Part shown: positions 6,291-34,053 of the stretch, one piece after another
Numbering within the stretch: position 1 is the stretch's first letter
Layout: every line of letters starts with the position of its first letter
Assembly (NCBI RefSeq): GCF_024502345.1
Contig: NZ_JALDNN010000003.1
DNA: 64,000 nucleotides
Source of the DNA: Escherichia coli
Lineage (GTDB): Bacteria > Pseudomonadota > Gammaproteobacteria > Enterobacterales > Enterobacteriaceae
Reading direction: 5' to 3' (one strand)
The notes under the pieces: model-generated
The model's database searches: none
Told to the model about the DNA's origin: nothing
The model's input: the letters and a program-made list of their open reading frames with translations, nothing else
Program-made: the position numbers and the translations under genes

Positions 6291-6302
6291 TTTCACTGAG
6301 TA

Positions 6303-12913: not shown

Positions 12914-13060
12914 TCATTGCATATGTTGCTGCGGCATCAAGATCCAGTTGTTCAGAGTGTTCAGGGAGCAGAATTTTACAATATTCCAGTCATGAGCCAC
13001 AGCTCCGAGCCGTTCATAAAGTGTAGATAGTTGCGTTATGGAATCATCAGTGCGGTTCAT
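12914..13060 (-). CDS. small ORF (48 aa), translationally coupled (ATGA) to upstream 222-aa gene
   Basis: MNRTDDSITQLSTLYERLGAVAHDWNIVKFCS...; start overlaps stop of 13057-13725 gene; ends 47 bp from Tn3 IR; may be remnant of a gene disrupted by the transposon. Confidence 0.25.
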   Translation of the reverse strand: MNRTDDSITQLSTLYERLGAVAHDWNIVKFCSLNTLNNWILMPQQHMQ

Positions 13061-13725
13061 GAATAGCGCCGACTTCCAATAATATATTGAGCAAGTTTGA
13101 TGTTAAGACATACCATGTTGCTTGATAGTTGGCGCATCATACGGGATTCGCTACGAATTAAATAGGATTCAAGTAGTCCAGAATATTCCCCTGACGTTAC
13201 AACCGTCAACTGGGCAATGTGATTATTTAATTTGCTTACCCCTGCCAGGATATCATCCTCCGTCGCCTCGATATAAACGGGGGAGGCAGCGATAACATAA
13301 TCATCGAAAGGTCTTGCTGCCATCAATGTCTCAATAGATTTCGCCGTCCTTTCTTTCCCGAATGTATTTGTTAATTCCCGCCACCATTGTCGGTGACTGA
13401 ACGGTAAATCATGAAAGGTGGCTTCATAAGCGTCCACGAGGTCACGACTATTCAAAAAACCCAACCCGGCCGAGATCACCCACAACTCCAGGTTCTCAGT
13501 TGTCCGTAATATCTCTTTTGCCGTTGACCAGTGATTACCGGCATAGAGCGACAGGGCCGGTACCGGTGAAGCACTTTGCGACCGTTTAATCGTTGCTGCC
13601 CAGCTGGACATTGCCTCTTCTGGTGTCTGTCCAGACCGGATACTCAGTTCTGGCATGGAGCCGCACTGGCTGTGCTTACCTTTGGTACAGGACGTTATTA
13701 GGTGTGTAATTCGCGACGCCGCCAT
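13057..13725 (-). CDS. hypothetical protein (222 aa)
   Basis: ATG at 13725 preceded by GAGGG SD; ORF track extends to TTG at 13743; no family recognised. Confidence 0.55.
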   Translation of the reverse strand: MAASRITHLITSCTKGKHSQCGSMPELSIRSGQTPEEAMSSWAATIKRSQSASPVPALSLYAGNHWSTAKEILRTTENLELWVISAGLGFLNSRDLVDAYEATFHDLPFSHRQWWRELTNTFGKERTAKSIETLMAARPFDDYVIAASPVYIEATEDDILAGVSKLNNHIAQLTVVTSGEYSGLLESYLIRSESRMMRQLSSNMVCLNIKLAQYIIGSRRYS

Positions 13726-13935
13726 TTTGTAGCCCTCAGCCAAATGTGTGTAATCACTGTCTAACTATCGTAACAGCCCCTCATCCGCCATAACGACAAA
13801 GAGGAAGCCCTAAACGTAAACGACTACCCCATTATACATTTAGTCATGCCTTTACTAATAACTAGATACCAAAGTAAACACCCCAGAGGTGACACCGTCA
13901 CGTTTTTCGGCTTTATTTAGTTCATTTTATGTACT

Positions 13936-13963: not shown

Positions 13964-14233
13964 AGATTTACACCTCTACTCAAAAGAGCCTAATAGAAAC
14001 TAAATCCTTATATATCAATAACTTGAATTCGCCATCACGCACCCATAGAGAGCACCCGTCTTTTGTCGGGCCGTAGGGTTGTTGGCCCCATAGTAACTGC
14101 ATGCTAATCTCTTTCATGCTTAGTCACTAGTAAAGGCTTTACTAATTGCGATGCTACGTGAATATTATTGACGGAGGAGGGGGTTGGGGCAGTGAAAATC
14201 TCTCAGCCAAAACAGTGGGAAAAGGATCGTGAA

Positions 14234-15046
14234 ATGAGCATGAATTATCAGCCGGAACTGAAGTTGAGTACCCGCACCGAACAACTCGCCAGTAGTCGTG
14301 ATGCCGCTATGCAAAAATTTCTGGACGGTATTATGCTGATTGCCGAAGCCTCAGCTATTTGCGGGTTTTCACTATTTAACAGCAAAATTATGGCCCCTAA
14401 TGCTTTTGGCCTTCCTGCGTCCCTGGCCGCAAGCATCGAGGAAGGGCGACAGCAAATAGACCGTAAGACATGGAACAATCTTTTTGAAGAAACGGGTATT
14501 GACCGATTCTGGAATCACAACCAGCGAGCGGAGTTCAGTGAGTCTCTCCGGTCCGCTCCGCCAATTGCGTCGTTAACCGTAATCCGTAGCACATTGCGCC
14601 AGGCAGTGGCCATTCGGAGCATCACGCTTGCTCAAGGGTTTGTTGATCTGCTATGCCAGCTTGATCGCCGGTATAAAACTAATGCCCAGCAATTTGTGAT
14701 GCCAAAAAAACTGGTACTACGTGGCATTTTTCCCGACTCGAACATGATGAGATATAACGGCTTTTCTCAGGATAATCTCTTCTATTTGAACGACTTTGAG
14801 AATATCGTTTGCATCTGCTCCAACGCAGCGACACCTCCTGTCGGCAGTGGATTGAATATGTACGACCGGCTTGCTGCCTTAAGGAAAACCGATTTTACTG
14901 GTGACATTACCGACCCGAAGGGCTGGAAGTGCCGATTGTTCGTAAATGGTAATGTCCATATTTCAGTTGAGTGTGAAAGCCTGCATAACACACTGAATGA
15001 CCTGATTAGCATTTATTTTGCCAACCAGATCCCGGCCAAAGGATAA
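14234..15046 (+). CDS. hypothetical protein (about 270 aa)
   Basis: ATG at 14234 with AAGGA SD (ORF track uses TTG at 14168); 2-bp gap to next gene. Confidence 0.55.
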   Translation: MSMNYQPELKLSTRTEQLASSRDAAMQKFLDGIMLIAEASAICGFSLFNSKIMAPNAFGLPASLAASIEEGRQQIDRKTWNNLFEETGIDRFWNHNQRAEFSESLRSAPPIASLTVIRSTLRQAVAIRSITLAQGFVDLLCQLDRRYKTNAQQFVMPKKLVLRGIFPDSNMMRYNGFSQDNLFYLNDFENIVCICSNAATPPVGSGLNMYDRLAALRKTDFTGDITDPKGWKCRLFVNGNVHISVECESLHNTLNDLISIYFANQIPAKG

Positions 15047-15048
15047 GA

Positions 15049-16269
15049 ATGATGACTGACAATGAAAATTTGATGAACGGGGATGAACAGACAGCGTCCA
15101 ATTTAAGTGAAGAGACAACAAAAAAGCGCCCTCTCAGCCCCGAACTACTGAAGAATTCTCCTTATTCATCAATAGCTAAGGTTAAATATTTCACCGAAAT
15201 TGAACAAATCTGCCTCGATAAGGGCATCAGCACCGAAAACCTCGATCAGTTTTTCAAAGCCCACTGGCTGCGGGATAAAATGGGGGGGTCTTTTGCCCGC
15301 GCTCAGGAGATGCTGGCTGCCTACAAGCAATACGTGGACGAGGTGCCCGAGGAAGCGCGTGCGATTGAAATCCCTGACCAGATTAAAGAAGCATTTAGTG
15401 ATTTTACTGCGTTTATCATCTGGTACTTCCGCTTAAGCTATACGGCTATCCAGAGTGATAGCGTGAAAATTGCGAAGGCAGAAATTACTCAGTTAAGACA
15501 TCGGAATGCTGAAATTCTGGAAGAACTGTCACAGTCGAAAGAACAGGTTACAGTACTGAATAACGAAAAAGTTAACCTGATTAACCAGCTGGAACAACAG
15601 CGTGAACTCGCCAGTAAATTGGGGGATTCACTTCGGGAAGCAGAAGAAGCGCTGGCTACAACCCAAAGTGAATTACAGCATGCCCAAAACGAGATTCAGC
15701 TTATACAGCAGACAGTAGGGACACTGAACCAACAACTGAGTGAGCGCAAGCAGGAACTGGCCTCCCAGCAGGAGTACCAGAAGCAACTGAATGATGAGAA
15801 TAAAGAGCAGCAGGTAGAGCTGACAGCCCTCAAAAGCCAGAATGAACACTTACAACGGACCGTATCTGATTTAAAGGTCAGTGTCAGTCAGCTTGAACAG
15901 GACCTTTCCTCAGCACAAACCCATTCCTCTGAATTGAGCTCATCTTTAGCCGAAAAGGACACGGCCCTGACGCTCGTGCGGTCGGAGCTGTCAACAGCTA
16001 AAGGGGAGAATGAACAACTTCGAGCTGAAGCACAACGCTTAGGTGATGAGAGCCTGCTTGCCAAAAAGGTGCAAACAGCTCAGACAGAAGAACTTCGGAA
16101 GCTCCAGAATCAGATGATATCCATGGAAGCGACACTCAATGCGGAAAAGACCATTTCAGAGTCTTTACGAGGAACAATCAAGCAGCTTACCGAAGCTATG
16201 ACCGGCGCAGTTGCCATCAAACCTAAATCCTCTGGGGCATCAAAACCGCGAAACAAAAAGACGACATAA
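15049..16269 (+). CDS. coiled-coil protein with N-terminal globular domain (KfrA-like architecture)
   Basis: 406 aa; residues ~140-380 are heptad-rich Q/E/L/K repeats (LEQQRELASKLGDSLREAEEALATTQSELQHAQNEIQ...). Confidence 0.65.
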   Translation: MMTDNENLMNGDEQTASNLSEETTKKRPLSPELLKNSPYSSIAKVKYFTEIEQICLDKGISTENLDQFFKAHWLRDKMGGSFARAQEMLAAYKQYVDEVPEEARAIEIPDQIKEAFSDFTAFIIWYFRLSYTAIQSDSVKIAKAEITQLRHRNAEILEELSQSKEQVTVLNNEKVNLINQLEQQRELASKLGDSLREAEEALATTQSELQHAQNEIQLIQQTVGTLNQQLSERKQELASQQEYQKQLNDENKEQQVELTALKSQNEHLQRTVSDLKVSVSQLEQDLSSAQTHSSELSSSLAEKDTALTLVRSELSTAKGENEQLRAEAQRLGDESLLAKKVQTAQTEELRKLQNQMISMEATLNAEKTISESLRGTIKQLTEAMTGAVAIKPKSSGASKPRNKKTT

Positions 16270-16540: not shown

Positions 16541-17860
16541 TTAAGGTTGTGATTCGGGTGAATTGTATCGTCTAGCTTCCGGGAAATGAGGGAGTTCCTG
16601 GTATTCAGTCTTCTCCGTAGCATCCCAGTGCCACCATCCATAGGCCCCATATTCCTGGTTGTAATACGCCTTCTTAAGTTCCTTTCGCGCAAGATAGGCA
16701 GGTGTCGACATCCCGAAAACTTCCATCGGGAACGGCTTATCACTTCGTGTATCCAGTAAATAAAAATCTGGGAAAACATCGCTCACACTGGCGTCATACC
16801 GCATAGGCTTAACATAGTGCCGGTGTTCGGCATCAAGTTTACGGGACACTATCGCTTCGTAGGAGGAGTCCAGAGGTATCCAGTTATCACTCACCAGCAT
16901 AAGCACTATCTGATGAGCTCGTGCAGAGATACCTCTACTGGTCACCGATACGGGAGATGTAAGAGCAAAAACAACAACTTTGCCCCCATTTTTCCAGGCG
17001 GCATATTCCAGAGGGAATCGCCGCTTCACGCTATCCCAGTGCCCGTCTGAGTTAAAGAAGGTAAGGGGCATACCGCCGAAGTTACGCATAGGTAGAAACT
17101 TCAGCGGCTTCTCATGCTTTTCTGCGTCATAGCGCGGCAGTACTGATAGCAGCAGCAGTCGTTTGTCGCTCAGTTCCGCCGACGACAGCAGTTGAACCTG
17201 CTCACTGGCCACTTTGCTTTTAGAGTCCGCCACCCCGATAAAAAGATGGTCGCCAATACATGCTCTACCCGATCTAATCTGCTTTGCGGCTTCCAACATC
17301 CGGTATCGAACCAGCGAATCATTTCGCTTCCCGGCCATATTCGGATACCAGACATTAAGACCGGCTTCAGTCCACAACAGACTCAGAAGTCCGGACAGGG
17401 TCATTGAAGCCTGGCCACCTTCAGGTCGCTGGATTTGGGGCAGGGAAGGAACCTCAGACTTTTCCGGCGGATCTTTCTCCGTCATGCCTATTCCAAGGCG
17501 GATTGACATGGTCCCCTCATTGTTGATGCGTACAACATTGCTGGCATAACCCTTTAACCCTGTATGCCTGGCATCAAGGTCGAAAAACACACACGATGGA
17601 TCATGCTCAGTGCCGGTATTTGCAGCCTTAATCAGGATGAACGTATCACTGTTTGGTAGTGAGCGGACGTAGAGACGCTTTGCGCCTTTTCCCCGACATC
17701 CGCAGCTGATCACAGATTTCTGCCCGGACGTGTGGTGTGCTTTCTTCAGGGCCGACTGCCATCCCTTTACATACTCATCCTGTGTCTGAAATTCAGCCGA
17801 GTATCGTTTCGTGTTTGGTTCGTCATCGTAAGCAATAAAAACTGCAAACTTCTGGCCCAT
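16541..17860 (-). CDS. hypothetical 439-aa protein downstream of C5-methyltransferase; candidate restriction endonuclease or methylation-dependent partner
   Basis: Strong SD AGGAGG before ATG at 17860; co-directional with MTase; no family recognised by eye. Confidence 0.65.
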   Translation of the reverse strand: MGQKFAVFIAYDDEPNTKRYSAEFQTQDEYVKGWQSALKKAHHTSGQKSVISCGCRGKGAKRLYVRSLPNSDTFILIKAANTGTEHDPSCVFFDLDARHTGLKGYASNVVRINNEGTMSIRLGIGMTEKDPPEKSEVPSLPQIQRPEGGQASMTLSGLLSLLWTEAGLNVWYPNMAGKRNDSLVRYRMLEAAKQIRSGRACIGDHLFIGVADSKSKVASEQVQLLSSAELSDKRLLLLSVLPRYDAEKHEKPLKFLPMRNFGGMPLTFFNSDGHWDSVKRRFPLEYAAWKNGGKVVVFALTSPVSVTSRGISARAHQIVLMLVSDNWIPLDSSYEAIVSRKLDAEHRHYVKPMRYDASVSDVFPDFYLLDTRSDKPFPMEVFGMSTPAYLARKELKKAYYNQEYGAYGWWHWDATEKTEYQELPHFPEARRYNSPESQP

Positions 17861-17884
17861 GGGACCTCCTGAAATTTAAAAATA

Positions 17885-18055
17885 CTAATAGCCTAGCCAT
17901 ATCAATACTTCTTGCGCGTTGTACTCTTCCCTCTCACCCAACTCGGAAAAAAATACGTCTATGTCGCTGGCTACGACGCAATGTTTTGCAAGCTCTTGCA
18001 GAGCTCTCTGTTTTGAAATGGTGAGGTCTTCTGCTGAATCAAAATACGTCATCAT
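17885..18055 (-). CDS. small ORF (56 aa) between methyltransferase and 439-aa gene
   Basis: MMTYFDSAEDLTISKQRALQELAKHCVVASDIDVFFSELGEREEYNAQEVLIWLGY; GGAGG SD; below ORF-track length cutoff. Confidence 0.3.
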   Translation of the reverse strand: MMTYFDSAEDLTISKQRALQELAKHCVVASDIDVFFSELGEREEYNAQEVLIWLGY

Positions 18056-18183: not shown

Positions 18184-19611
18184 CTATGATGCCGCTTCAA
18201 ATTCTCCCTTGAGACGAGCCGCAACGGCGATCTCAATACGGCTTCGAAGCAAACTGGCCACGGCCGCAAATACGTCGACGATGACCGAATTGCCGAACTG
18301 GCGATAGGCCTGGGTATCAGAGACTGGAATGCGAAAAGTAACTTTTCCCGGTTGCTCGAATCCCATAAGGCGGGCACATTCTCGCGGGGTTAAACGGCGC
18401 GGGCGCCTTGCCATATTTACAGGATCATTAAAGTCCTTTTCGCCTATGCTGTGATCCCATCCACGGTCTAGCAAAATTTCAGAGCCATCACGATAGTACC
18501 GTGCGCTGAGTGTTCTGCAAACAACTGATTTATCAAGTGGATTTACCAGTCCGAAGCCAAATCCATTACCTTTTGCCTGGTGCTTTTTAGCGTAGTTATA
18601 AAGGTACTCCCAGAGCTTTGGAGAAAGGATGTAACGGCTATCGACCTCAGCGTCCAGCAGCTCCCCAAGGGTTGGCCGTCGTGAAGGATAAAGAGCCGAT
18701 ACACCACTTAACGAAAAGCCATCATGGAGCTTCAGATCGCGCCTGAATCCAACCAACACGATACGTTCCCGGTGCTGAGGCCTGAAGTTCTTACCGTCAA
18801 TTATTTTGGGGTCCTTTGATCCGTGAGCATCGCAGTCGGCAACATCGTAGCCAAGTTCATCAAGCGCTTTCATGATGATGCGGAACGTATTTCCCTTATC
18901 GTGGCTCTTCAGATTTTTTACGTTCTCAAGAACGAAAATGGCAGGCTGTTTGGCTCGGATGATCCGGGCGACATCAAAAAAAAGGGTCCCCTGGGTGTCG
19001 CATTCAAAGCCGTGTTTTCGGCCCAAAGAGTTCTTTTTGCTGACACCGGCAATACTGAACGGCTGGCATGGGAAACCGGCGAGCAAAACATCATGGTCAG
19101 GAATGGATGCAGCGATAGAAGCATACGCCTGGTCTTCCGACACATCGGGAAGATTGCTGAGTGTAATGTCCCGGATATCTGAGTTGAAATGGTGCTCGGT
19201 GTCTTCGCAGTACCAGTTTGCACTGTATGTCCGGCGGGAGAACTGATTCCATTCGCTTGTAAACACGCATTTCCCGCCAATGGCGTCAAAACCACTCCGG
19301 AGGCCACCGATCCCAGCAAACAAGTCAATAAAACGGAAAAATTTCTGGTCATAGTCTGCTGGGCGTGAGGGGAGCAACGATCGAAGATAATGATATTCTT
19401 CCTGGGTTATTCGACATTCATTAACTGAACCTTTGATCTGGCGAATAAGTGATGCCCTCGACCAGTCGCTGCCGGTTGCAGCATTAAGTTGCGCAGCCAA
19501 ATCTTTTACGTCATAGATACTTGCAACCTGAACCAGTAATTTATGGATAGAGGAATGTGTCTCATCATTTAGCAATGCAGTTATTGCAGGCTCATTTCTC
19601 GCGCTGTACAT
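18184..19611 (-). CDS. DNA (cytosine-5)-methyltransferase, Dcm/EcoRII-methylase-like
   Basis: Motifs FAGIGG (AdoMet binding), PCQPFS (catalytic Cys), ENV; colinear with E. coli Dcm over nearly full length. Confidence 0.9.
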
Positions 19612-19833
19612 CCTTACTCCGTGAAATGTGATTAATTTAGGTTCTCAGACTACCACGCGCAGAAAATTCAATTTTTCTTTAAAGCCCTTTATTTTCATCT
19701 CCTGAAATAAATTTTTTATCCACTTAAATTGCCTCCGTTAACGGAAATTTGCCCGGGTTCTAATTGGTACAATAAGCACTTCTAATCACACGACTAATTT
19801 GTTACTACAAACCATCTAATTCAGGGAGAATGT

Positions 19834-20349
19834 ATGACTCTGTTGAAAAAGTTACTTTTGCCGACATTAATTGTCCTTTTCCCGGCGGCAGTTCTGGCTG
19901 GTCAGTCTTCATTTGAAGCAAAAGTGGTAAAAATTATCGATGGGGACACCATTACCGCGCTCGACGGTCAGAATACAAGCATCAAAATCCGTATGTACGG
20001 TATTGATGCCCCCGAAAGTAAGCAGGCCTTTGGACAAAAGGCTAAACAAGCGTTGAGCTCCGCGATTGCTGCACAGAATATTACGGTAATAGACCACGGA
20101 CCTGATATTTACGGCAGGATGTTGGGGACTATTTGGCTTGATGGTTATGACATCAACGCTTCAATGGTAGACAGTGGTTATGCATGGGTATATCGGTTTG
20201 ACGGTAATCCCATCGTCCCAAACTATCTTAAATTCGAAGCTTCAGCTCAGAAAGCCGTTAAAGGTCTCTGGGTAGATCCTAATCCCGTTGCTCCTTGGGA
20301 GTGGCGCCAGCAAAACCAGAAACCTCAAAAGACGAAAAGCAGGGGGTGA
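19834..20349 (+). CDS. secreted thermonuclease-family (staphylococcal nuclease-like) endonuclease
   Basis: N-terminal signal peptide (MTLLKKLLLPTLIVLFPAAVLA); SNase core motifs DGDT...YGIDAPE... Confidence 0.85.
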   Translation: MTLLKKLLLPTLIVLFPAAVLAGQSSFEAKVVKIIDGDTITALDGQNTSIKIRMYGIDAPESKQAFGQKAKQALSSAIAAQNITVIDHGPDIYGRMLGTIWLDGYDINASMVDSGYAWVYRFDGNPIVPNYLKFEASAQKAVKGLWVDPNPVAPWEWRQQNQKPQKTKSRG

Positions 20350-20355
20350 GCGCGA

Positions 20356-21287
20356 TGACAAGCCAGCATCCTTTACTGAAAATTGCACTTAATGGCGATG
20401 GACTTCTTTCGTGGCCAAATTCACCCGGACAGACTATGCGCTGCCCAACGTGTATGCGAGATGTTATTACGGGTCCGGATGGTGATTTAATACATCAAAT
20501 GGAAGAGGGCGCTAACCCCTGCACGCCATCTGTTGATGTTGTCATTTCAAAGGCGATCATTGAACTACTCAGCACGGGTGAGCGCCTCTATGTCAACCCA
20601 GTTAAGAACGCGAATAGAACACTGGCCCCATCGTTTATCTTTCTGCATAAAGACAAGCAACTTCGACCATTCATAAATACGGAATATCAACCAGCAGGTG
20701 CCACCTGGAGAAGTGATAAAGGGAACAGGCTTGGTTTTTTCTATATGGATGCGCGAGCGTCTAAAATTAATAAGGACCAGTTCGATTTTATTGCTGTAAT
20801 AGACCCATCTACTTTTCAAGCAGAATTTAAGACCTTATGGTCCATGTGTGAATTCGATAACCCCCTTGCCGCGTTACAGCACTTATTGGTTTCAGAGAAT
20901 ATGTCTTCAGTCTGGGTGAAATGGCCTGTTAAAAGCCTACAACCGAGGAAAGAAGCAGTGAAGGCCGATTACTGGTATGACTATTATTCACCTCACTACC
21001 CAGCGCAGCAGGCAGCTTGCACAGCAACAGTGATTGGACTGGAAGGAAATGTATCCGGGGAAACTATTTACATGCTCCAGATCGCTGTAGACCGGTCGAT
21101 AGTTGAGTACCAGCTTGTAAAATCGCTAGGGGTTATATTGCTATTGGATAATACGGGAAATTTGGTATCGGAGACGCGCCCACACTTTGATATAATCATC
21201 AAAGCTTGCATCTCGGGTGTCAGAGACTTTGTACGTCAAAATCCTCGAATGCGAAGTGTGGAGCATCAGATTACCAGTGCAATATGA
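20356..21287 (+). CDS. hypothetical protein (311 aa)
   Basis: ATG at 20356 preceded by GGGGG/GAG SD just after nuclease stop; no family recognised. Confidence 0.55.
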
Positions 21288-21781
21288 GGAAATGGATCAG
21301 CGACTAAATCTGTTGCTCGCCGTAAATACAAGTGCGCACCATAAAATAAAAACACTTTATAAATCAATGACTTTGTCAAAGCTAAGTAGAGATGTCCGGG
21401 GTGGGGCAAAGTTCAAATGTCCTTTGATAATATTGAATTCCTGGATAAAAATCGCATCTTAACCTCTTCGTTTGAGTACCTTGTTGGGTTGACCCCGTAT
21501 TCGCTTTATTTGTAGTATTGGGCTGCTTTGAAGTGTTTCATGTTCAAACGCGACGTGTTCTGTAAGTTCTTCCTGACAACAGAGCCGACAATATATACAC
21601 ATCCGCTATGGAGAATCTGACAACCGCTATGCGTATTACGCCACCCTGAGTTTTTCCTTCCTCTGTCGTACTGAGCAAGCCTCAGCACGCACTCAATAAC
21701 ATCCCGTCTGCGGATGTGCTTTACCGTACGTAAAAATGTAGCCCTCCAGGGCTGACTGTATCTAAAAACTGAGAAATTACT

Positions 21782-23260
21782 ATGTTGCTGTCCTCGACGC
21801 GTAAGGACTGGCTGGGTAACGTCCGTGGTGACGTTCTGGCCGGTATTGTTGTCGCGCTCGCACTCATTCCAGAAGCGATCGCCTTTTCCATTATCGCCGG
21901 TGTTGATCCCCAGGTGGGCCTCTACTCGGCGTTCTGTATTCCTCTCGTTATGGCCTTCTTTGGCGGACGTCCGGCGATGATTTCGTCCTCCACCGGTGCA
22001 ATGGCTCTCCTGATGGTGACGCTGGTGAAAGATCATGGCTTACAGTATTTACTGGCTGCCTCCATACTGACCGGGGTATTCCAGCTGATAGCCGGATATC
22101 TGAAGCTTGGCGGGCTGATGCGTTTTGTTTCACGCTCAGTGGTCACGGGGTTTGTTAATGCACTGGCAATACTGATTTTTATGGCCCAGTTGCCTGAGCT
22201 GACCAATGTGACATGGCATGTTTATGCCATGACTGCGGCAGGGCTGGGGATCATCTATCTCTTCCCTTATATCAACAAAACCATTCCTTCACCGCTTGTG
22301 TGCATCGTGGTGCTGACTGGGATTGCCATGTGGCTGCATCTGGATGTGCGAACCGTCGGGGATATGGGGAAACTTCCCGACAGTCTGCCGGTCTTCCTGC
22401 TCCCGGACGTGCCTTTAAATCTTCAGACGCTGCTCATCATCCTGCCATATTCTGCGGGGCTTGCGGTGGTTGGCCTGCTTGAGTCGATGATGACCGCCAC
22501 TATCGTGGATGACATGACCGACACGCCAAGCGACAAAAACAGGGAGTGCAAAGCTCAGGGCATCGCGAACATCTGCACATCCTTTATCGGAGGAATGGCA
22601 GGCTGCGCGATGATTGGGCAATCTGTTATCAACGTAAAATCCGGTGGACGCGGACGACTTTCAACCCTCACGGCGGGCGTGGTGCTGCTTTGCCTGATTG
22701 TGTTCCTGCGCAACTGGGTCTCCCAAATTCCGATGGCAGCGCTGGTCGCGGTGATGATTATGGTTTCCATCGGGACATTCTCCTGGCGCTCCATTGCCAA
22801 CCTGCGGACACACCCCCTTTCAACCAGCGTGGTCATGCTTGCCACCGTAGCGGTTGTGGTGGCAACACATAATCTGGCCTTCGGTGTGCTGACCGGTGTA
22901 CTGATTGCTTCGCTCAATTTTGCCACTAAAGTATCCCGGTTCATGCGTGTAACCTCAGTTCTGGAGGGGACGAGCCGGACGTATACCGTCACCGGCCAGG
23001 TATTCTTTGCATCAGCAGACCGCTTTACGAGCCACTTTGATTTCCGTGAAGCGATTGAGAATGTGGTGATAGACGTTTCACATGCCCATTTCTGGGACAT
23101 CACGTCCGTCAGCGCCCTGGATAAGGTGGTCATTAAGTTCCGCAGAGAGGGCGCCGGGGTTGAAATACGTGGGATGAATGAAGCCACCCGCACCATCGTT
23201 GACCGGTTTGGTGTTCACGATAAACCTGAAGAAGTCGAAAAACTGATGGGCGGTCATTAA
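21782..23260 (+). CDS. SulP-family anion transporter with C-terminal STAS domain
   Basis: 492 aa, about 10 TM segments, SulP signature region and STAS-like C-terminus. Confidence 0.85.
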
Positions 23261-23278
23261 CAGACTGGAGGGAAAACT

Positions 23279-24106
23279 ATGAATAATACTGTTACAGCTT
23301 GTGTGGACGGTTCACTTTCAACGCGGTCAGTGTGTGAATATGCGGCGTGGGCAGCCCGCACTTTGCAATCACAGCTAGCACTGTTGCACGTTATCGAAAA
23401 AGACAGCACCCCGGTAGTGTCAGACCTGACCGGCACTCTCGGCATAGACAGTCAGCAATTGCTGACCGATGAGCTGGTAGAAATTGAAGGGCAACGTAAT
23501 CGCCTGCTGATGGCCCAGGGGAAAGCAATACTGGAAAGTTGTGCTGAACTGCTTCAAAAACAGGGAAGCCCGGATGTGCTTTTGATGCAAAAACACGGTA
23601 CACCGGATGAAGTTCTGGCAGAGCTGAGCGACCTTCGTCTCATGGTGCTGGGGCGTCGGGGTAGCCAGCATCCGGTAGGCTCTCATCTGGAAAGCGTTAT
23701 TCGTCTGCAAAAGAAACCCCTACTGGTTGTTCCGGAGAACTACTCAGTGCCTTCCAGAGTCATGCTGGCTTATGATGGCAGTGAAGAAAGCAGGAGTAAC
23801 CTGGAACGTCTGACGATGAGTCCCTTACTCAGGGGGCTGGAGTGCCACCTTGTCATGGTAAACGGTAAGAAGGAAGAGCTGCTGACCGCACAGCAAATTT
23901 TACGTGACGCGGATATAGAAAACAGCACAACACATCTTACCGGGCAATCAGTCGGGGACGCGCTTATTCGTTACGCCGAGGAAAATGCTGTCGATCTGAT
24001 AGTGATGGGGGCCTACGGTCATTCCAGGTTGCGGCAGTTCTTTATCGGTAGTCATACCTCCGAAATGCTGCAAAAGACGCAACAACCGCTTCTTATCCTC
24101 CGTTAG
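23279..24106 (+). CDS. universal stress protein, tandem UspA domains
   Basis: 275 aa with two Usp-like halves (VLGRRG..., VMGAYGHSRL...). Confidence 0.8.
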   Translation: MNNTVTACVDGSLSTRSVCEYAAWAARTLQSQLALLHVIEKDSTPVVSDLTGTLGIDSQQLLTDELVEIEGQRNRLLMAQGKAILESCAELLQKQGSPDVLLMQKHGTPDEVLAELSDLRLMVLGRRGSQHPVGSHLESVIRLQKKPLLVVPENYSVPSRVMLAYDGSEESRSNLERLTMSPLLRGLECHLVMVNGKKEELLTAQQILRDADIENSTTHLTGQSVGDALIRYAEENAVDLIVMGAYGHSRLRQFFIGSHTSEMLQKTQQPLLILR

Positions 24107-24125
24107 CACTGATTATCTTAAATAA

Positions 24126-24150
24126 AAAAGGGCGAGTTCTCTCGCCCTTC
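24126..24150. terminator. bidirectional stem-loop terminator between usp and arsC (convergent)
   Basis: AAAAAAGGGCGAGTTCTCTCGCCCTTCGT hairpin flanked by A/T runs. Confidence 0.5.
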
Positions 24151-24165
24151 GTCACAAGAACACGT

Positions 24166-24591
24166 TTAGTTCAGCCGGTTACCTTTTTCATCAACTACCT
24201 TCTCACCGTCCTCTTTCGTGAACGCGCTTTTCTGCGCATCGGGAAGAATATCCAGCACGACTTCAGAAGGGCGGCATAGCCGGGTACCCAGCGGCGTTAC
24301 CACGATAGGGCGATTGATCAGAACAGGGTGCTGCAACATAAAATCGATTAACTGCTCGTCAGTAAAGCGGTCTTCCGCCAGCCCTAACGCTTCAAAAGGT
24401 TCGACATTCTTACGCAGCAGCGCTCGTACCGTGATCCCCATATCCGCAATGAGTTTTACCAGCTCAGCTCGTGATGGTGGGGTTTCAAGATAATGAATAA
24501 CGGTCGGCTCTGTACCGCTGTTGCGGATCATTTCAAGGGTATTGCGTGACGTGCCGCAGGCCGGGTTGTGATAAATGGTAATGTTGCTCAT
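24166..24591 (-). CDS. arsC: arsenate reductase (glutaredoxin-type)
   Basis: 141 aa MSNITIYHNPACGTSRNTLEMIR... classic ArsC. Confidence 0.92.
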   Translation of the reverse strand: MSNITIYHNPACGTSRNTLEMIRNSGTEPTVIHYLETPPSRAELVKLIADMGITVRALLRKNVEPFEALGLAEDRFTDEQLIDFMLQHPVLINRPIVVTPLGTRLCRPSEVVLDILPDAQKSAFTKEDGEKVVDEKGNRLN

Positions 24592-24603
24592 ATCAGTATC
24601 TCA

Positions 24604-25893
24604 TTACAAAGTGAAAGACAGACGAAGCGCCAGTGCTGCAAGCGTGACAAACAGCACGGGGATTGTCATGACAATGCCCACCCGGAAGTAATATCCCCAG
24701 GTAATTTTGATATTTTTCTGCGACAGAACGTGCAGCCACAGTAACGTTGCCAGACTGCCGATAGGGGTAATTTTTGGCCCCAGGTCGCTGCCGATGACGT
24801 TGGCGTAAATCATCGCTTCTTTGATAACACCGGTCGCAGTGCTGCCATCAATCGACAGCGCCCCGACCAGCACGGTCGGCATATTGTTCATCACTGATGA
24901 CAGGAAGGCCGTCAGGAAGCCCGTACCCAGCGTTGCCGCCCACAATCCCTGCTCTGCCAGCTGATTCAGCAAGGAAGAGAGATAGTGGGTCAGACCGGCA
25001 TTTCGTAAGCCGTAGACCACCAGGTACATCCCCAGCGAGAAGATAACGATTTGCCAGGGCGCACCACGCAGCACCTTACCGGTGTTAATGGCATGCCCTT
25101 TTTTCGCAACAGCAAACAGAAGCAATGCACCAGCGGCTGCGACCAAACTGACCGGTACGCCCAGCGGCTCCAGTCCGAAGAATCCCACCAGAAGCAACAC
25201 CAGAACCAGCCAGCCGGTTTTAAAGGTATTCACATCACGTATAGCGTCTTTCGGTTCTTTCAACAGAGAAACGTCGTAAACGGCGGGAATGTCCTTACGG
25301 AAAAACAGATGCAGCATCACCAGCGTAGCCGCAATCGCGGCCAGGTTAACCGGGACCATCACGGCGGCATATTCTGAGAAACCAAGCTTAAAGAAATCCG
25401 CCGAGACGATATTCACCAGGTTTGAGACAATCAGTGGCAGGCTTGCCGTGTCAGCGATAAACCCTGCGGCCATGATAAACGCTAAGGTTGCCCCCCGGCT
25501 GAATCCCAGCGCCAGCAGCATCGCGATAACGATAGGTGTCAGGATCAGTGCCGCACCGTCGTTGGCAAACAGTGCCGCAACCATCGCACCAAGCAGGACG
25601 ATCCAGGTGAAGAGCAGCCGCCCCCGGCCATTCCCCCAACGGGCAACGTGCAGCGCGGCCCATTCAAAGAAGCCGGATTCGTCGAGCAGAAGACTGATGA
25701 TGATCACGGCGATAAAGGTGGCGGTCGCATTCCACACTATCTGCCAGACCACCGGAATATCCCCCAGATGAACGACGCCAGTCAGCAATGCCAGAATTGC
25801 GCCCAGTGAGGCACTCCAGCCAATCCCCAGCCCTCTGGGTTGCCAGATAACCAGGACGAGCGTGAATAAAAAGATAGCACCAGCCAGTAACAT
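24604..25893 (-). CDS. arsB: arsenite efflux permease
   Basis: [28 protein letters not shown]... about 429 aa polytopic membrane protein matching ArsB. Confidence 0.92.
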
Positions 25894-25938
25894 CAGAAAC
25901 TCCATTCACATTTGTTTATTCGGATATATATATCGCCA

Positions 25939-26259
25939 TCAGCAGGAGACAGATGCCACGCTACTGAGCTTGTTGCGTATGTTTTCTCGTTCACAGTTCC
26001 AGGCTGTATCAATAATACCCGCAGCCCATGCTGGCATGTGTGGCGACAGTCGGTAATGCACCCATTTTCCTTCGCGACGGTCGATGACCAGCTCGGCTTC
26101 ACGTAAAAGGGCCATATGGCGAGAAATTTTTGGCTGAGACTCTGCGGTTGCCGCACAGATGTCACAGACGCACATTTCACCGGACTCCCTGAGAAGCATC
26201 ACGATAGTTGAACGGGTCTCGTCGGCGAGCAGTTTAAAAAGCTGAACAGGCTGTAGCAT
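25939..26259 (-). CDS. arsR: arsenical resistance operon repressor (ArsR/SmtB family)
   Basis: MLQPVQLFKLLADETRSTIVMLL...ELCVCDIC (metal-binding CVC)... Confidence 0.88.
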   Translation of the reverse strand: MLQPVQLFKLLADETRSTIVMLLRESGEMCVCDICAATAESQPKISRHMALLREAELVIDRREGKWVHYRLSPHMPAWAAGIIDTAWNCERENIRNKLSSVASVSC

Positions 26260-26345
26260 GCTTAACCTCGTAAAAAAATAACAATACATATGGTATTTCA
26301 TATGTGATAACTTTTAAAGCATAGCTTATGAAATGGAGATTTTTT

Positions 26346-27050
26346 ATGACCGACTTACCAGCAATCGAACCGGCTTATTTTGATGATGCGCTTGCCAGCA
26401 AACTTACGGGCAACAACGAAACCATGCCGCGAATTCTCATCCTGTACGGTTCAGTACGAGAGCGGTCCTACAGTCGTTTTGCAGCGGAAGAGGCCGGGCG
26501 GTTGCTGGCAAAGATGGGGGCTGAGGTGAAAATATTTAACCCATCCGGTCTGCCGTTACCCGATGATGCGCCCGAAAGTCACCCCAAAGTGCTTGAACTC
26601 CGCGAGCTGGTCAGGTGGTGTGACGGAATGGTCTGGAGTTCTCCGGAAAGACATGGCGCCATGAGCTCGGTGATGAAGGCCCAGATTGACTGGATACCCC
26701 TGAGTGAAGGTGCTGTTCGTCCTTCCCAGGGTAAAACGCTGGCCGTCATGCAGGTTTGTGGTGGTTCACAGTCGTTTAACACGGTCAATCAGATGCGGAT
26801 ACTTGGCCGCTGGATGCGGATGTTCACCATCCCCAATCAGTCGTCAGTGCCAAAGGCATGGCAGGAATTTGATGATGAAGGGCGCATGAAACCCTCACCC
26901 TGGTATGACAGGATTGTCGACGTTACCGAAGAGTTGTTCAAAATGACGTTACTCCTGAAAGGGCACACAGCCTACCTGTCCGACCGCTACAGCGAAAGGA
27001 AAGAGAGTCATCAGGAGCTCGCGGCACGGGTCAATCAGGCCAAAATCTGA
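26346..27050 (+). CDS. arsH: ArsH (NADPH-dependent FMN reductase family)
   Basis: MTDLPAIEP...[18 protein letters not shown]... typical ArsH; divergent from arsR. Confidence 0.85.
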
Positions 27051-27082
27051 CAGCCAGGCATGCCCGGATGGATTACCGGGCT

Positions 27083-28486
27083 TTAAATCGGTTTCTTCCC
27101 AAATATCTCTTCAGAGCGTGACTGAAGTTTCACCAGGGCATTGAACATATCGTCCTGATCCAGGGAACGCTGGGATTTCTTCGTCGTGGGAGCTTTACGC
27201 CTGCGAGAAGGGCCGTCTCCGGATGGTACGGATTGCGACCGGTTATTATCCCGCTCGGCCTGGACCAGCTGCGCCATTTCCAGGGCCCGCCCCAGACGTT
27301 TGTTATCCACAATGGCCCCCTGATCGATTTCAGAAAGCTTGTCATAGGTGGAGTAGGGAAGTGATACGCCATTAAGCCGGAGCTCTTTATGTCCATCCGG
27401 GTAATGCCAGACATCGATGTATTTACCAATCGCCCGACGACTGAATTCGCTGTCTTCAATCAGATAAAGGACTTTGTCGTATTGCACTGTGAGTGATTTC
27501 GACACTTTACGAGCTTCACGCCAGTTAAATACCATATCAAGATCGTCATCGACATCCAGTTCCCGATGAACATCAAACTCCTGGCGAGGCGCTTTTGCGA
27601 AACGACGGTTGTAATCGTTCATGAACTCTTCGGCAAATGCGTTCGCAGCTTCCATGGAACTGATGCCCTGGAGCCTGAGCTCCTTGACCAGTCGGTCCTG
27701 AAGCGTCAGGTGCGCCCGTTCAACGCGGCCTTTGGCAGCACTGGTTTCTGCACAAATGGTCTGAATGTTCAGTTCATGCATCGCACGGCCAAACTGGGTA
27801 TCGCCGTCGCCGCCGGTTGCATTTTTATTGTTGATCCTGAATACGCTGGCTTTGTCGCTGTACAGCGCAAGCGGTTTGCCATGTTTTTCAATATAGCCCC
27901 GGGTCGCTTCAAAATAGGTGAAAGTAGACTCAGATTTCACGAAAAGAAGCTGCATTAAACGACTGGTTGCGTCATCAACGTAAACCAGTGCCGTACACTT
28001 AGGTCCCCGATTTTCAAACCAGTGGTGGTCGCAGCCGTCGATTTGTATGAGTTCACCGGCACAGGCACGGCGGTAACGAGGTTGCTGAATTTTTGGCGCA
28101 CGTTGCTTACGTGGGACCCACAGACTGGCCTGAGTCATCAGCTTACGGACGGTTTCTTTGGAAAGATGAACACCGTGCACCTCAGACAGTTTTTCACAGG
28201 CCAGCGTCGGACCGAAATCGTTATAGCGTTCGCGAATAATGTTCAGCGCGTATGCGGCCAGTCCCTGAGGCAACTGGTTGTTACTGGATTTACCACGACG
28301 GCGGCTGGTCATGCCAATCGGACCATCTTCACGATAACGCGCAAGCAGACGACGGCACTGACGGTCGGAGATACCAAGCCGCTGAGCTGCCATTTGTGTT
28401 GTCAGACGCCGGTCGATGACATCCTGAATGATTTTGAGTCGGTTAACTTCATCCAATGTGAAAAACTCCGCTGCGAGAGCCGTCAT
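27083..28486 (-). CDS. DDE transposase (integrase-core type, ISNCY/IS1202-like; family tentative)
   Basis: 467 aa: N-terminal HTH (LGISDRQCRRLL), DDE core (IQIDGCDHHWF...VYVDDATSRL...ETSAAKGRVERAHLTLQDRL). Confidence 0.8.
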   Translation of the reverse strand: MTALAAEFFTLDEVNRLKIIQDVIDRRLTTQMAAQRLGISDRQCRRLLARYREDGPIGMTSRRRGKSSNNQLPQGLAAYALNIIRERYNDFGPTLACEKLSEVHGVHLSKETVRKLMTQASLWVPRKQRAPKIQQPRYRRACAGELIQIDGCDHHWFENRGPKCTALVYVDDATSRLMQLLFVKSESTFTYFEATRGYIEKHGKPLALYSDKASVFRINNKNATGGDGDTQFGRAMHELNIQTICAETSAAKGRVERAHLTLQDRLVKELRLQGISSMEAANAFAEEFMNDYNRRFAKAPRQEFDVHRELDVDDDLDMVFNWREARKVSKSLTVQYDKVLYLIEDSEFSRRAIGKYIDVWHYPDGHKELRLNGVSLPYSTYDKLSEIDQGAIVDNKRLGRALEMAQLVQAERDNNRSQSVPSGDGPSRRRKAPTTKKSQRSLDQDDMFNALVKLQSRSEEIFGKKPI

Positions 28487-28780
28487 GGTAATCCTTACTT
28501 GATTATACACGCCGGACATCTTAACTTAGCCATTATCGGACATTACAACTTTGCTACTACAGACTTTGTCAAAGCAAGTTTAAAATGTCACCTCTTTGTG
28601 CAAGATAGAAAGGGCACTTTCAGCCTATGTAATCATATTAATGTGACTGCTGCGTTATCCCACTCAACCAATTAATAAAGCAAAAGTTAAATATGAAAGA
28701 CTGGAATAAAAATATAACGAAAACATCTTAATATGGAAATATCTGTGTCAACGGGATCTTTAGTTATTGAATATCTGGTT

Positions 28781-29587: not shown

Positions 29588-29604
29588 AATATCTATATAG
29601 ATTT

Positions 29605-30051: not shown

Positions 30052-30197
30052 CTCCTTGTTTTATATTTTTACATTCAAATTTTACTATACGACTGGTTAA
30101 TTGCTCCTGTCCAACACACACCAGAGTTCATATGCTTAGCATACAAGGGACCAATGCCAGTAGCGACAGGCTAGTGTGTCAAAAAACCACATGAAGA

Positions 30198-31559: not shown

Positions 31560-31572
31560 TAAAACTAAATCC

Positions 31573-32376: not shown

Positions 32377-32434
32377 CTCAAGTATCCTTTTGGGGACTCA
32401 CTGTTCCGGTACTTTGCAGCACTGATGGTCGATT

Positions 32435-33793: not shown

Positions 33794-34053
33794 GCGTTGA
33801 GTCCCTTAGAATTGCATTCAGTTTAGCTTACTCTAAGGTGACGTTTCTATCTGGATAAAAAGTGACATTACTAAATGGTTCTAACAATCTTGGTGCGCAT
33901 AACAAAGATTATGTTAAATATGGTGGGTTTGCTCTTAAGTTCATGAGTCCCTCTCTTTCAGGAACTTACCGATGAATCAGTCAGTTGCCAAAGTTTAGTT
34001 GTGGACTTACGATGACTTCATAACACAAAAATTACGGGGCATCCGCTAAGTTC

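What the first reader, a model, noticed from the sequence alone, without database searches (positions are those of the whole stretch)
19834..21287. Secreted thermonuclease gene directly downstream of the methyltransferase operon's promoter region, followed by an unknown 311-aa gene
A signal-peptide SNase-like nuclease (YGIDAPE motif) is encoded divergently from the MTase, with a 311-aa unknown starting 6 bp after its stop. Plasmid-borne SNase-like nucleases are known (e.g. RP4 ParB), but linkage to a Dcm-like MTase module is unusual and the coupled 311-aa protein is unrecognised.
Basis: partly seen in the sequence, partly recalled or inferred. Interest (0 to 1): 0.3.

Follow-up and report, generated by a model that had tools for sequence, protein, structure and literature searches.

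The report
IncHI plasmid nuclease and orphan partner
This is a conserved two-gene operon of the backbone of large IncHI resistance plasmids: an ordinary exported staphylococcal-type nuclease, followed by a 310-residue cytoplasmic protein that occurs only next to this nuclease lineage and whose function is still unknown.

Summary
Window 19834-20349 (+) encodes a 171-aa SNase-family nuclease. It has a Sec-type signal peptide and every catalytic and Ca2+-binding residue of S. aureus nuclease. A second ORF follows five bases after its stop, at 20355-21287 (+). It is 310 aa, not 311. A Dcm-type methyltransferase starts 222 bp upstream on the other strand.

The window is IncHI (MOBH/MPF_F) plasmid backbone. 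SNase genes occur on at least 5000 of 72,556 plasmids. The 310-aa gene is on 1410, almost the same number as the 1412 that carry an IncHI-clade SNase (60% identity or more).

In every context examined, down to 24% identity, the partner starts -4 to +17 nt after the SNase stop. A conserved extended -10 element lies upstream. Published proteomics detected the nuclease, the methylase and, by gene position, the partner's orthologue from IncHI1 plasmids.

The partner belongs to a tiny orphan family with no match in any family library. The model shows a Cys2-His-Cys zinc ribbon, an alpha/beta core weakly resembling restriction-endonuclease folds without catalytic motifs, and a SpoVG-like domain.

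The nuclease is ordinary. The partner is real, strictly linked and uncharacterised. It is not an R-M system and not an RP4 par module. Interest is modest.

The parts
19612..19833 (.). 222-bp divergent intergenic region between the Dcm-type methyltransferase and the nuclease operon. Its sequence is poorly conserved between lineages.
19765..19773 (+). Extended -10 promoter-like element TGgTACAAT, 69 nt upstream of the nuclease ATG.
   Evidence: A TGnTAnAAT element lies at -66 to -71 in 9 of 10 divergent lineages, although the rest of the spacer is not conserved. This is a consensus match and no transcript data exist.
19823..19829 (+). Shine-Dalgarno sequence AGGGAGA for the nuclease gene.
   Evidence: Read directly from the sequence.
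19834..20349 (+). SNase-family (thermonuclease) gene, 171 aa. Codons 1-22 (19834-19899) are a Sec-type signal peptide. The mature protein would be 149 aa.
   Evidence: PF00565 at 8.5e-23. It aligns to S. aureus nuclease structures at E ~1e-9. D38, R53, D58, E61, Y93 and R95 (equivalent to S. aureus D21, R35, D40, E43, Y85 and R87) are invariant in 11 sequences. Hydrophobicity supports the signal peptide.
20341..20349 (+). Shine-Dalgarno sequence AGGGGGTGA for the partner gene. It overlaps the nuclease stop codon, which suggests translational coupling.
20355..21287 (+). Gene for a 310-aa cytoplasmic protein of an orphan family, with no signal peptide or transmembrane segment.
   Evidence: No hit in Pfam, NCBIfam, PHROGs, PADLOC or PDB sequences. 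The family comprises 21-25 clusters in 1.8-5.8 billion proteins. dN/dS is 0.32. Maximum Kyte-Doolittle(19) is 1.18.
20433..20522 (+). Partner residues 27-56: a zinc-ribbon-like Cys30-x2-Cys33 ... His47 ... Cys56 module of three short strands.
   Evidence: Alignment A2 keeps the ligands in 14 of 18 members. Model strands are at 27-29, 36-39 and 45-47 with pLDDT 80-90.
20532..20924 (+). Partner residues 60-190: an alpha/beta core (helix 60-73, five strands, helices 151-179). It carries the invariant W118-x-S120-x-K122-G123 motif. It weakly resembles the restriction-endonuclease fold, but PD/(D/E)xK residues are not conserved.
20931..21008 (+). Partner residues 193-218: a variable, low-confidence linker containing the aromatic DYWYDYY stretch.
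21018..21245 (+). Partner residues 222-297: a four-stranded sheet plus a long helix, SpoVG-like. It carries invariant E236, G259, L263, G268 and C285.
21283..21284 (.). Deletion breakpoint at the 3' end of the partner gene. Relatives continue with two small + strand genes (99 and 97 aa) that the window lacks.
18184..19611 (-). Context: divergent Dcm-type C5-cytosine methyltransferase, 475 aa.
   Evidence: PF00145 at 2.5e-74. NCBIfam PRK10458 scores 847 bits against a cutoff of 710. The best PADLOC hit is 'orphan methyltransferase'.
16541..18055 (-). Context: a 56-aa ORF (17885-18055) and a DUF1173 protein (16541-17860), both downstream of Dcm on the minus strand.
   Evidence: PF06666 at 1.4e-42. 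DUF1173 has been described as a Zn motif plus a PD-(D/E)xK-like core without an active site (PMC3045609).
13057..16269 (.). Context: the rest of the syntenic backbone block. It comprises DUF6884 (13057-13743, minus), DUF4942 (14168-15046, plus) and a 406-aa coiled-coil protein (15049-16269, plus).
   Evidence: The same order is seen.

Best explanation
What is shown. This is a two-gene operon belonging to the vertically inherited backbone of IncHI-type conjugative plasmids.

Gene 1 encodes a catalytically intact, Ca2+-dependent, sequence-non-specific SNase-family nuclease. It is made with a Sec signal peptide, so it should act outside the cytoplasm, in the periplasm or medium.

Gene 2 is read from the same transcript. 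Its ribosome-binding site overlaps the nuclease stop codon. It encodes a 310-aa protein that stays in the cytoplasm.

What is inferred. The partner is probably a non-catalytic, nucleic-acid-binding protein. It has an N-terminal Cys2-His-Cys zinc ribbon, a degenerate restriction-endonuclease-like core with no PD-(D/E)xK residues, and a SpoVG-like C-terminal domain. I think it works on DNA inside the cell as part of the same DNA-handling backbone block as its neighbours: the orphan Dcm methylase, DUF1173 (also a Zn motif plus an inactive nuclease fold) and DUF4942. I do not think it is needed for the nuclease's chemistry or export.

On this reading the operon co-expresses two plasmid-serving DNA functions from one promoter, placed back to back with the methylase promoter. 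One function degrades DNA outside the cytoplasm. The other binds or marks DNA inside it. The pair is not a restriction-modification system and not a par/multimer-resolution module.
For: Anatomy:
- SNase domain, catalytic residues and signal peptide.
- The gap from the SNase stop to the partner start is -4 to +17 nt in 10 of 10 lineages, and an extended -10 element is conserved in 9 of 10.
- No + strand terminator-like site lies between or within the two genes.

Backbone membership:
- The window matches IncHI1A/HI1B, MOBH, MPF_F plasmids.
- The partner is found on 1410 plasmids and the IncHI-clade SNase on 1412.
- The block DUF4942 / coiled-coil / DUF1173 / 56 aa / Dcm, then divergently SNase / partner, is syntenic down to 24% partner identity.
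- Insertions occur elsewhere in the block but never between the two genes.

Expression:
- The nuclease, the adjacent hypothetical protein and Dcm were detected by LC-MS/MS from four IncHI1 plasmids (gene identity by position).

The partner is not required by SNases in general:
- Secreted SNase homologues with the same catalytic residues and signal peptides occur without it on at least 3588 other plasmids.

Partner architecture:
- AF2 model with pLDDT 77, five concordant models.
- Zinc ligands are kept in 14 of 18 members.
- PD and ExK positions are not conserved.
- There is no hydrophobic segment.
Against: - All known members sit in one syntenic plasmid lineage, so adjacency cannot separate 'works with the nuclease' from 'works with the block'.
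- The partner is charge-neutral (30 K+R against 32 D+E), which is not typical of a DNA-binding protein.
- The conserved W-x-S-x-K-G, E236 and C285 residues could form an unrecognised active site.
- Conserved translational coupling usually indicates a closer functional or physical link than shared regulation.
- No experiment addresses nuclease activity, localisation or phenotype.
Confidence: 0.35

Rival explanations
1. Nuclease plus cognate cytoplasmic inhibitor or holding factor. The 310-aa protein would bind the nuclease precursor before export. It would either neutralise it or keep it export-competent, as in barnase/barstar, NucA/NuiA or colicin DNase/immunity pairs.
For: - Strict one-to-one co-occurrence with one SNase clade.
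- Partner immediately downstream with an overlapping stop/SD or ATGA/GTGA overlap in all lineages.
- The partner is cytoplasmic while the nuclease is exported.
- The partner evolves 2-3 times faster than the nuclease, with no conserved catalytic motif.
- Both proteins are expressed.
Against: - Secreted SNase homologues with identical catalytic residues and signal peptides exist without any such partner on thousands of plasmids.
- From general knowledge, SNase needs high Ca2+ and is nearly inactive at cytoplasmic Ca2+ levels, and no inhibitor is known for this family.
- 310 aa in three domains with a zinc ribbon is large for an immunity protein.
- The nuclease itself is slow-evolving (dN/dS 0.07), unlike toxins locked in co-evolution with an immunity protein.
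- The partner is not acidic, so it is not a DNA mimic.
Confidence: 0.25
2. The partner is a new enzyme, for example one that modifies DNA or nucleotides. It would use the invariant W118-x-S120-x-K122-G123 loop, E236 and C285, and would be co-expressed with the nuclease in a shared pathway.
For: - Several short motifs are invariant across members at 24-100% identity: WxSxKG, E236, Q253, G259, G268 and C285.
- The gene is under purifying selection.
- The two structured domains are predicted confidently.
Against: - No similarity to any enzyme family by sequence or fold.
- Very few polar residues are invariant.
Confidence: 0.12
3. RP4/RK2 ParB-like stability function. The SNase-type nuclease and its partner would act on plasmid DNA to help multimer resolution or stable inheritance, as proposed for the parCBA region.
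For: - The nuclease belongs to the same SNase superfamily as RP4 ParB (general knowledge).
- One plasmid homologue at 42% identity is annotated 'ParB'.
- The gene is a backbone gene of a large low-copy plasmid.
Against: - No resolvase or parC-like gene is in the operon. The neighbours are Dcm and the orphan protein.
- A signal peptide sends the nuclease out of the compartment where plasmid DNA resides.
- IncHI partition and stability genes lie elsewhere in the core genome.
Confidence: 0.08
4. A restriction-modification-like or defence module. Dcm would protect self DNA, and the nuclease, with the partner as a specificity subunit, would attack unmethylated incoming DNA.
For: - Divergent promoter arrangement with a cytosine methylase.
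- The linkage to Dcm is conserved.
- The SNase weakly matches a PADLOC candidate 'SNc+LTD' at 3.9e-11.
- Defence cargo clusters just downstream in relatives.
Against: - The nuclease is exported and is of a sequence-non-specific family.
- The partner has no PADLOC hit and no catalytic nuclease motif.
- The best PADLOC match for the Dcm is 'orphan methyltransferase'.
- A related plasmid lineage has DUF1173 and SNase without Dcm.
Confidence: 0.03

Closest known systems
Staphylococcus aureus nuclease A (thermonuclease, Nuc; PF00565)
   Same: - Same domain, at E ~1e-9 to solved structures.
- All Ca2+-binding and catalytic residues are conserved.
- Both are secreted through an N-terminal signal.
- The predicted mature length of 149 aa is the same.
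   Different: - Only 29% identity.
- Plasmid-borne in Enterobacterales.
- It has a conserved C-terminal P-W-x-W-R tail that S. aureus lacks.
- It is followed by a translationally coupled partner gene.
RP4/RK2 ParB nuclease of the parCBA region
   Same: A plasmid-encoded SNase-superfamily nuclease on a conjugative plasmid backbone (general knowledge, not tested by alignment here).
   Different: - There is no ParA resolvase or ParC in the operon.
- The neighbours are an orphan Dcm methylase and the 310-aa protein.
Stand-alone SNase genes of IncF and Klebsiella IncFIB/HI1B plasmids
   Same: - 37-53% identity.
- Same signal peptide and catalytic residues.
- Backbone location. In the Klebsiella lineage the gene is also divergent from DUF1173.
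   Different: - No 310-aa partner.
- The gene is followed instead by hha (IncF) or a PLD-family protein (Klebsiella).
- No Dcm is adjacent.
DUF1173 (PF06666), encoded 2 kb away in the same block
   Same: By my inference, the general architecture is the same: an N-terminal Cys/His zinc motif followed by a PD-(D/E)xK-like core that lacks the catalytic signature (PMC3045609).
   Different: - No detectable homology: hhalign probability is 0.3%.
- Different length (439 against 310 aa) and different zinc-motif spacing.
- DUF1173 has no SpoVG-like C-terminal domain.
Secreted nuclease / cytoplasmic inhibitor pairs (barnase-barstar, NucA-NuiA, colicin DNase-Im)
   Same: An exported nuclease gene is immediately followed by, and co-expressed with, a cytoplasmic protein found only with that nuclease.
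   Different: - No sequence or fold similarity to any known inhibitor.
- The partner is three to four times larger.
- Orthologous nucleases do without it.
- Binding is untested.

Membership tests
SNase / thermonuclease family (PF00565) | Domain match above the curated threshold | tested here: met
   81.3 bits against a cutoff of 21, E = 8.5e-23, covering profile positions 1-106 of 107.
SNase / thermonuclease family (PF00565) | Ca2+-ligand and catalytic residues (S. aureus D21, D40, T41 backbone, R35, E43, R87, Y85) | tested here: met
   D38, D58, R53, E61, R95 and Y93 are invariant in an 11-sequence alignment that includes S. aureus nuclease. T41 is replaced by A59; from general knowledge this ligand is a backbone carbonyl.
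SNase / thermonuclease family (PF00565) | Ca2+-dependent DNase/RNase activity | not testable with these tools
   Needs an enzyme assay.
Exported (Sec) protein | N-terminal signal peptide with n-, h- and c-regions | tested here: met
   The sequence is MTLLKK, then a 15-residue hydrophobic core (KD 2.55), then VLA|G. The feature is conserved in all plasmid homologues and absent from the mature S. aureus sequence. No dedicated predictor was available.
NCBIfam EcnA calcium-activated nuclease (NF047969, equivalog) | Score above the equivalog cutoff | tested here: not met
   63.5 bits against a cutoff of 180.
RP4 parCBA-type stability module | Nuclease gene in an operon with a ParA resolvase and ParC | tested here: not met
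   The operon holds only the SNase and the 310-aa orphan. No resolvase lies within the block.
Type II restriction-modification system | A cytoplasmic, sequence-specific endonuclease paired with the methyltransferase | tested here: not met
   The nuclease is SNase-type with a signal peptide. The partner lacks PD-(D/E)xK residues and has no PADLOC hit. The best PADLOC hit for the Dcm is 'orphan MTase'.
PD-(D/E)xK (restriction-endonuclease-like) superfamily, for the 310-aa protein | alpha-beta-beta-beta-alpha-beta core fold | tested here: inconclusive
PD-(D/E)xK (restriction-endonuclease-like) superfamily, for the 310-aa protein | Conserved acidic residues and lysine of the active site | tested here: not met
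   The putative PD position is P92-S/D/G/A. The putative ExK strand is G-F-F. E70 is not invariant.
DUF1173 (PF06666), for the 310-aa protein | Profile similarity | tested here: not met
   No Pfam hit. hhalign A2 against A3 gives probability 0.3% and E = 0.21.
Nuclease-inhibitor (immunity) pair | The partner is adjacent, co-transcribed and restricted to its nuclease | tested here: met
   The gap is -4 to +17 nt in 10 of 10 lineages. 1410 plasmids carry the partner against 1412 with the clade's SNase.
Nuclease-inhibitor (immunity) pair | The nuclease cannot be maintained without the partner | tested here: not met
   Homologous secreted SNases with intact active sites are carried without it on at least 3588 plasmids. 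This does not exclude a lineage-specific dependence.
Nuclease-inhibitor (immunity) pair | Physical binding and inhibition | not testable with these tools
   No complex prediction or assay was available.

The most novel reading that the evidence does not exclude
The 310-aa protein founds a new family of dedicated SNase-associated factors. It could be the first cytoplasmic inhibitor or holding factor known for a staphylococcal-type nuclease. Alternatively it could be a zinc-ribbon, dead-nuclease-fold DNA reader that works with the plasmid's orphan Dcm/DUF1173 block during establishment of IncHI plasmids in new hosts.
Probability: 0.25. Interest if true: 0.55.

Novelty: new variant of a known kind. 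Interest (0 to 1): 0.3.

Why it matters
IncHI plasmids are major carriers of multidrug, colistin and carbapenem resistance in Salmonella, E. coli and Enterobacter. About half of their core genes have no known function.

This pair, together with the Dcm methylase, is part of that core and is expressed as protein. It also sits at the edge of a hot spot where resistance and defence cargo is inserted.

Knowing what the exported nuclease and its lineage-specific partner do could reveal a backbone function worth targeting. Candidate roles include clearing extracellular DNA, competing with other mobile DNA, and supporting establishment after transfer. If the partner turns out to bind the nuclease, it would also be the first natural protein partner of an SNase-type nuclease. 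As it stands, the nuclease is ordinary and the partner is an uncharacterised orphan, so the finding is a lead rather than a discovery.

Tried and rejected
1. Family libraries for the partner. Pfam, NCBIfam, PHROGs and PADLOC gave nothing with the single sequence. Pfam also gave nothing for all 18 members at E up to 10.

2. PDB sequence and profile searches found only chance-level hits at E ~1.

3. Exhaustive HMMER over 1.84 billion representatives, plus a profile search, found only 21-25 relatives, none annotated.

4. P0039 is a 1252-aa secreted LTD / EEP-nuclease / dockerin protein that matched residues 34-120 three times (E = 3.9e-7). I rejected it as inflated by repeats. Each pairwise piece has E ~1e-5 in a two-sequence search. 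The matched part is a confidently predicted helix in the partner, but it lies at the end of or just after each lamin-tail repeat in P0039, which I expect to be beta-strand.

6. I tested homology between the partner and the neighbouring DUF1173 with hhalign. Probability was 0.3%, so I rejected it.

7. An early reading that locus L012 lacks the Dcm gene was wrong. A Dcm fragment lies 2 kb upstream, with two genes inserted between it and the SNase.

8. I considered whether this is a plasmid leading region with anti-restriction genes. I could not place the block next to oriT. In the IncHI1 core-gene order it is not adjacent to the listed Trh genes, and no oriT or relaxase is in the window. I make no such claim.

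9. Alignment of the intergenic region showed no conserved operator or inverted repeat. Rfam found nothing in the locus.

10. Literature searches found no functional study of this nuclease or its partner.
Full report
**Observation**

The ORF table shows a 171-aa ORF at 19834-20349 (+) and, in the next frame, an ORF whose first ATG is at 20355 and whose stop ends at 21287. The raw sequence shows AGGGAGA four bases before the first ATG. It also shows AGGGGGTGA, which contains the nuclease stop codon, five bases before the second ATG.

The first product matches Pfam SNase at E = 8.5e-23 and contains MYGIDAPES. The second has no Pfam match.

A 475-aa Dcm-type C5-cytosine methyltransferase (PF00145 at 2.5e-74; NCBIfam PRK10458 at 847 bits against a cutoff of 710) starts 222 bp upstream on the opposite strand. 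It is followed by a 56-aa ORF and a DUF1173 protein.

**The nuclease**

It aligns to solved S. aureus nuclease structures at E ~1e-9. I aligned ten plasmid homologues with S. aureus nuclease A. The residues equivalent to D21, R35, D40, E43, Y85 and R87 are invariant; here they are D38, R53, D58, E61, Y93 and R95.

The N-terminus has two lysines, a 15-residue hydrophobic core (Kyte-Doolittle 2.55) and a VLA|G site. Cleavage there would leave a 149-aa mature protein. I conclude that it is an active, exported, Ca2+-dependent non-specific nuclease. Activity and localisation are inferred, not measured.

It scores below the NCBIfam EcnA and NucI equivalog cutoffs.

**Where the window comes from**

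The 1.9-kb region is 99.8% identical to 170-450-kb conjugative plasmids of Citrobacter, E. coli, Enterobacter, Klebsiella and Salmonella. These are typed IncHI1A/HI1B, MOBH, MPF_F. There the genes are annotated 'DNA cytosine methyltransferase', 'thermonuclease family protein' and 'hypothetical protein'.

In E. coli the region is present in 132 of 5426 complete genomes, and 127 of 138 places are on plasmids.

In the window the block runs from about 13.0 to 21.3 kb: DUF6884, DUF4942, a 406-aa coiled-coil protein, a 67-aa ORF, DUF1173, a 56-aa ORF and Dcm, then divergently the SNase and the partner. A truncated Tn3-family transposase and IS66 lie on the left. SulP, USP and ars cargo lie on the right.

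**Distribution and linkage**

By tblastn the partner is found on 1410 of 72,556 plasmids, 1230 of them conjugative. The SNase is found on at least 5000. Of these, 1412 are at 60% identity or more, and at least 3588 are below that. The near-equality of 1410 and 1412 shows that the partner belongs to one SNase clade only.

Outside that clade the nuclease stands alone. On IncF pO157 it lies after finO and before hha. On Klebsiella IncFIB/HI1B plasmids it is divergent from DUF1173 and followed by a PLD-family protein. These partner-less nucleases keep both the signal peptide and the active site.

Within the clade I examined contexts at partner identities of 89, 78, 51, 50, 48, 40, 38, 25 and 24%. 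In every one the partner directly follows the SNase, and the Dcm gene is upstream.

Insertions have occurred elsewhere in the block:
- two genes between Dcm and the SNase in L012;
- extra genes between DUF1173 and Dcm in L016;
- a SMEK_N gene in L023.

None has occurred between the SNase and the partner. The distance from the SNase stop to the partner start is -4, -4, -4, 5, 5, 5, 5, 11, 11 and 17 nt in ten lineages.

The Dcm-SNase spacer is otherwise unalignable. Even so, a TGnTAnAAT extended -10 element sits 66-71 nt before the SNase ATG in nine of the ten lineages. No + strand terminator-like site was found in 19500-21800.

**Both genes are real and expressed**

Against a relative with 93% DNA identity, dN/dS is 0.07 for the SNase, 0.32 for the partner, 0.13 for Dcm and 0.09 for DUF1173. 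At all depths the partner accumulates amino-acid change two to three times faster than the nuclease.

Table S3 of a proteomic study of four IncHI1 plasmids lists core genes #2 'hypothetical protein', #3 'nuclease' and #4 'DNA cytosine methylase' as consecutive genes. By my count of the '+' marks, gene #2 was detected in 6 and gene #3 in 5 of 12 plasmid-condition combinations at 24 C (PMC5390554).

In p8025 from that study, the gene next to the thermonuclease encodes WP_015062961.1. The same protein accession is annotated in L018, whose copy is 88.7% identical to the window's partner protein. Identification of core gene #2 with the partner is by position.

**The partner protein**

It has no hit in Pfam, NCBIfam, PHROGs or PADLOC, and none in PDB sequences, whether searched as a single sequence or as a profile. 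An exhaustive HMMER pass over 1.84 billion representatives found 21 relatives. A profile search of 5.8 billion clusters found 25, none annotated.

It has no hydrophobic segment and is charge-neutral. A first AF2 model was poor (pLDDT 62). Adding the 22-46% identical members gave five concordant models with pLDDT 77.

The model has four parts:
- A three-stranded module carrying Cys30, Cys33, His47 and Cys56. These ligands are kept in 14 of 18 members.
- An alpha/beta core spanning residues 60-190.
- A disordered, aromatic linker spanning residues 193-218.
- A four-stranded sheet packed on a long helix, spanning residues 222-297.

The positions where PD and (D/E)xK would fall are not conserved. 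The invariant polar residues are S120 and K122 (in W-x-S-x-K-G), E236 and C285. BFVD gave nothing, and AFDB was unavailable.

The neighbouring DUF1173 family has been described as a zinc motif plus a PD-(D/E)xK-like core without the active-site signature (PMC3045609). That is the architecture I infer for the partner. Profile-profile comparison nevertheless finds no relationship, at probability 0.3%.

**Interpretation**

What is shown:
- This is a conserved, expressed, two-gene operon of the IncHI backbone.
- Its first product is an intact exported SNase.
- Its second product is a cytoplasmic orphan protein restricted to this nuclease clade.

What is inferred is the role of the partner. I favour a non-catalytic nucleic-acid-binding function within the DNA-handling block, alongside the orphan Dcm, DUF1173 and DUF4942. 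My reasons are:
- its domain make-up;
- the fact that homologous secreted nucleases do without it;
- the fact that SNase is, from general knowledge, almost inactive at cytoplasmic Ca2+ levels.

My confidence in this is only 0.35.

The main rival is a dedicated cytoplasmic inhibitor or holding factor for the nuclease precursor, at confidence 0.25. The never-interrupted, translationally coupled junction supports it, as does the partner's faster evolution. A new enzyme, a ParB-like stability role and an R-M-like role are less likely, for the reasons given under the rivals.

Because every known member lies in one syntenic plasmid lineage, genomic context cannot separate these models. A complex prediction or simple genetics would.

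**Comparison and novelty**

The nuclease is a new member of a very well-known family. It is one of thousands of plasmid SNase genes, so it is ordinary. The pair is not a member of the RP4 parCBA module, since there is no resolvase. It is not an R-M system either, since the nuclease is exported and non-specific.

The partner is an uncharacterised lineage-specific family. It is already present, as 'hypothetical protein', in about 1400 plasmid records and in the published IncHI1 core genome. I found no functional study of it.

I rate the whole as a new variant of a known kind, with modest interest (0.3). Interest would rise to about 0.55 if the partner proves to be a dedicated SNase-binding factor or a methylation-linked DNA reader.

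Noticed in passing
window 21283-21400: Homology to relatives breaks at 21283/21284, inside the last codons of the partner gene. Related plasmids continue with two small + strand genes (99 and 97 aa; about 740-1090 bp) that the window lacks. As a result the window's protein ends ..SAI (310 aa) instead of ..SAMPG (312 aa).
   Followed up: yes
window 21500-33800; L001 13957-14757; L006 13365-15285; L027 4163-5569: The site just downstream of the pair is a cargo hot spot. The window carries SulP, USP and arsCBRH, then ISNCY elements and FRG-domain proteins. Relatives carry a Shedu nuclease or a SMODS-like plus S-4TM effector pair at the same place.
   Followed up: partly
window 16541-18055 (-): The Dcm gene is followed by a 56-aa ORF and DUF1173. 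The literature describes DUF1173 as a zinc motif plus an inactive PD-(D/E)xK fold. In a Klebsiella plasmid lineage DUF1173 is directly divergent from the SNase with no Dcm. The DUF1173-SNase association may therefore be older than the Dcm insertion.
   Followed up: partly
L006 7213-7356: One lineage has a partial duplicate of the 5' end of the SNase gene (a 47-aa ORF with a signal-peptide-like start), about 120 nt upstream of the intact gene.
   Followed up: no
window 42127-42288 (-): Rfam finds a full-length sok antitoxin RNA (89 bits), which implies a hok/sok post-segregational killing locus.
   Followed up: no
window 34054-38370 (+): Three consecutive overlapping ORFs (507, 558 and 387 aa) lie in low-GC DNA and have no Pfam hit. 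In related plasmids the equivalent trio is annotated site-specific integrase / integrase / hypothetical protein. The third ORF here is shorter than in relatives and lies next to a DDE transposase gene.
   Followed up: no
window 54260-56689 (-) and 39910-41115 (-): There is an 808-aa protein with only a PAPS-reductase domain hit and a 400-aa protein with only a ParB-HTH hit. Most other backbone ORFs between 41 and 60 kb have no family assignment.
   Followed up: no
window 15049-16269 (+): The 406-aa coiled-coil protein next to DUF4942 evolves as fast as the partner (28-43% identity where the SNase is 52-78%). It gives weak PADLOC hits to JetC/LmuB coiled-coil regions, probably from composition only.
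   Followed up: no
window 1-7050: The left end carries citrate-lyase-related genes (HpcH/HpaI-family lyase subunit, citrate lyase ligase), a DpiB/DpiA-type two-component system and a truncated DcuC-type carrier. This metabolic cargo ends at an IS66-family element.
   Followed up: no
P0039 / L014 6001-9759: A 1252-aa metagenomic secreted protein (three lamin-tail repeats, an EEP nuclease domain and a dockerin) matched partner residues 34-120 three times at a summed E of 3.9e-7. I judged this to be inflated by the repeats, but I could not exclude a shared small motif.
   Followed up: partly
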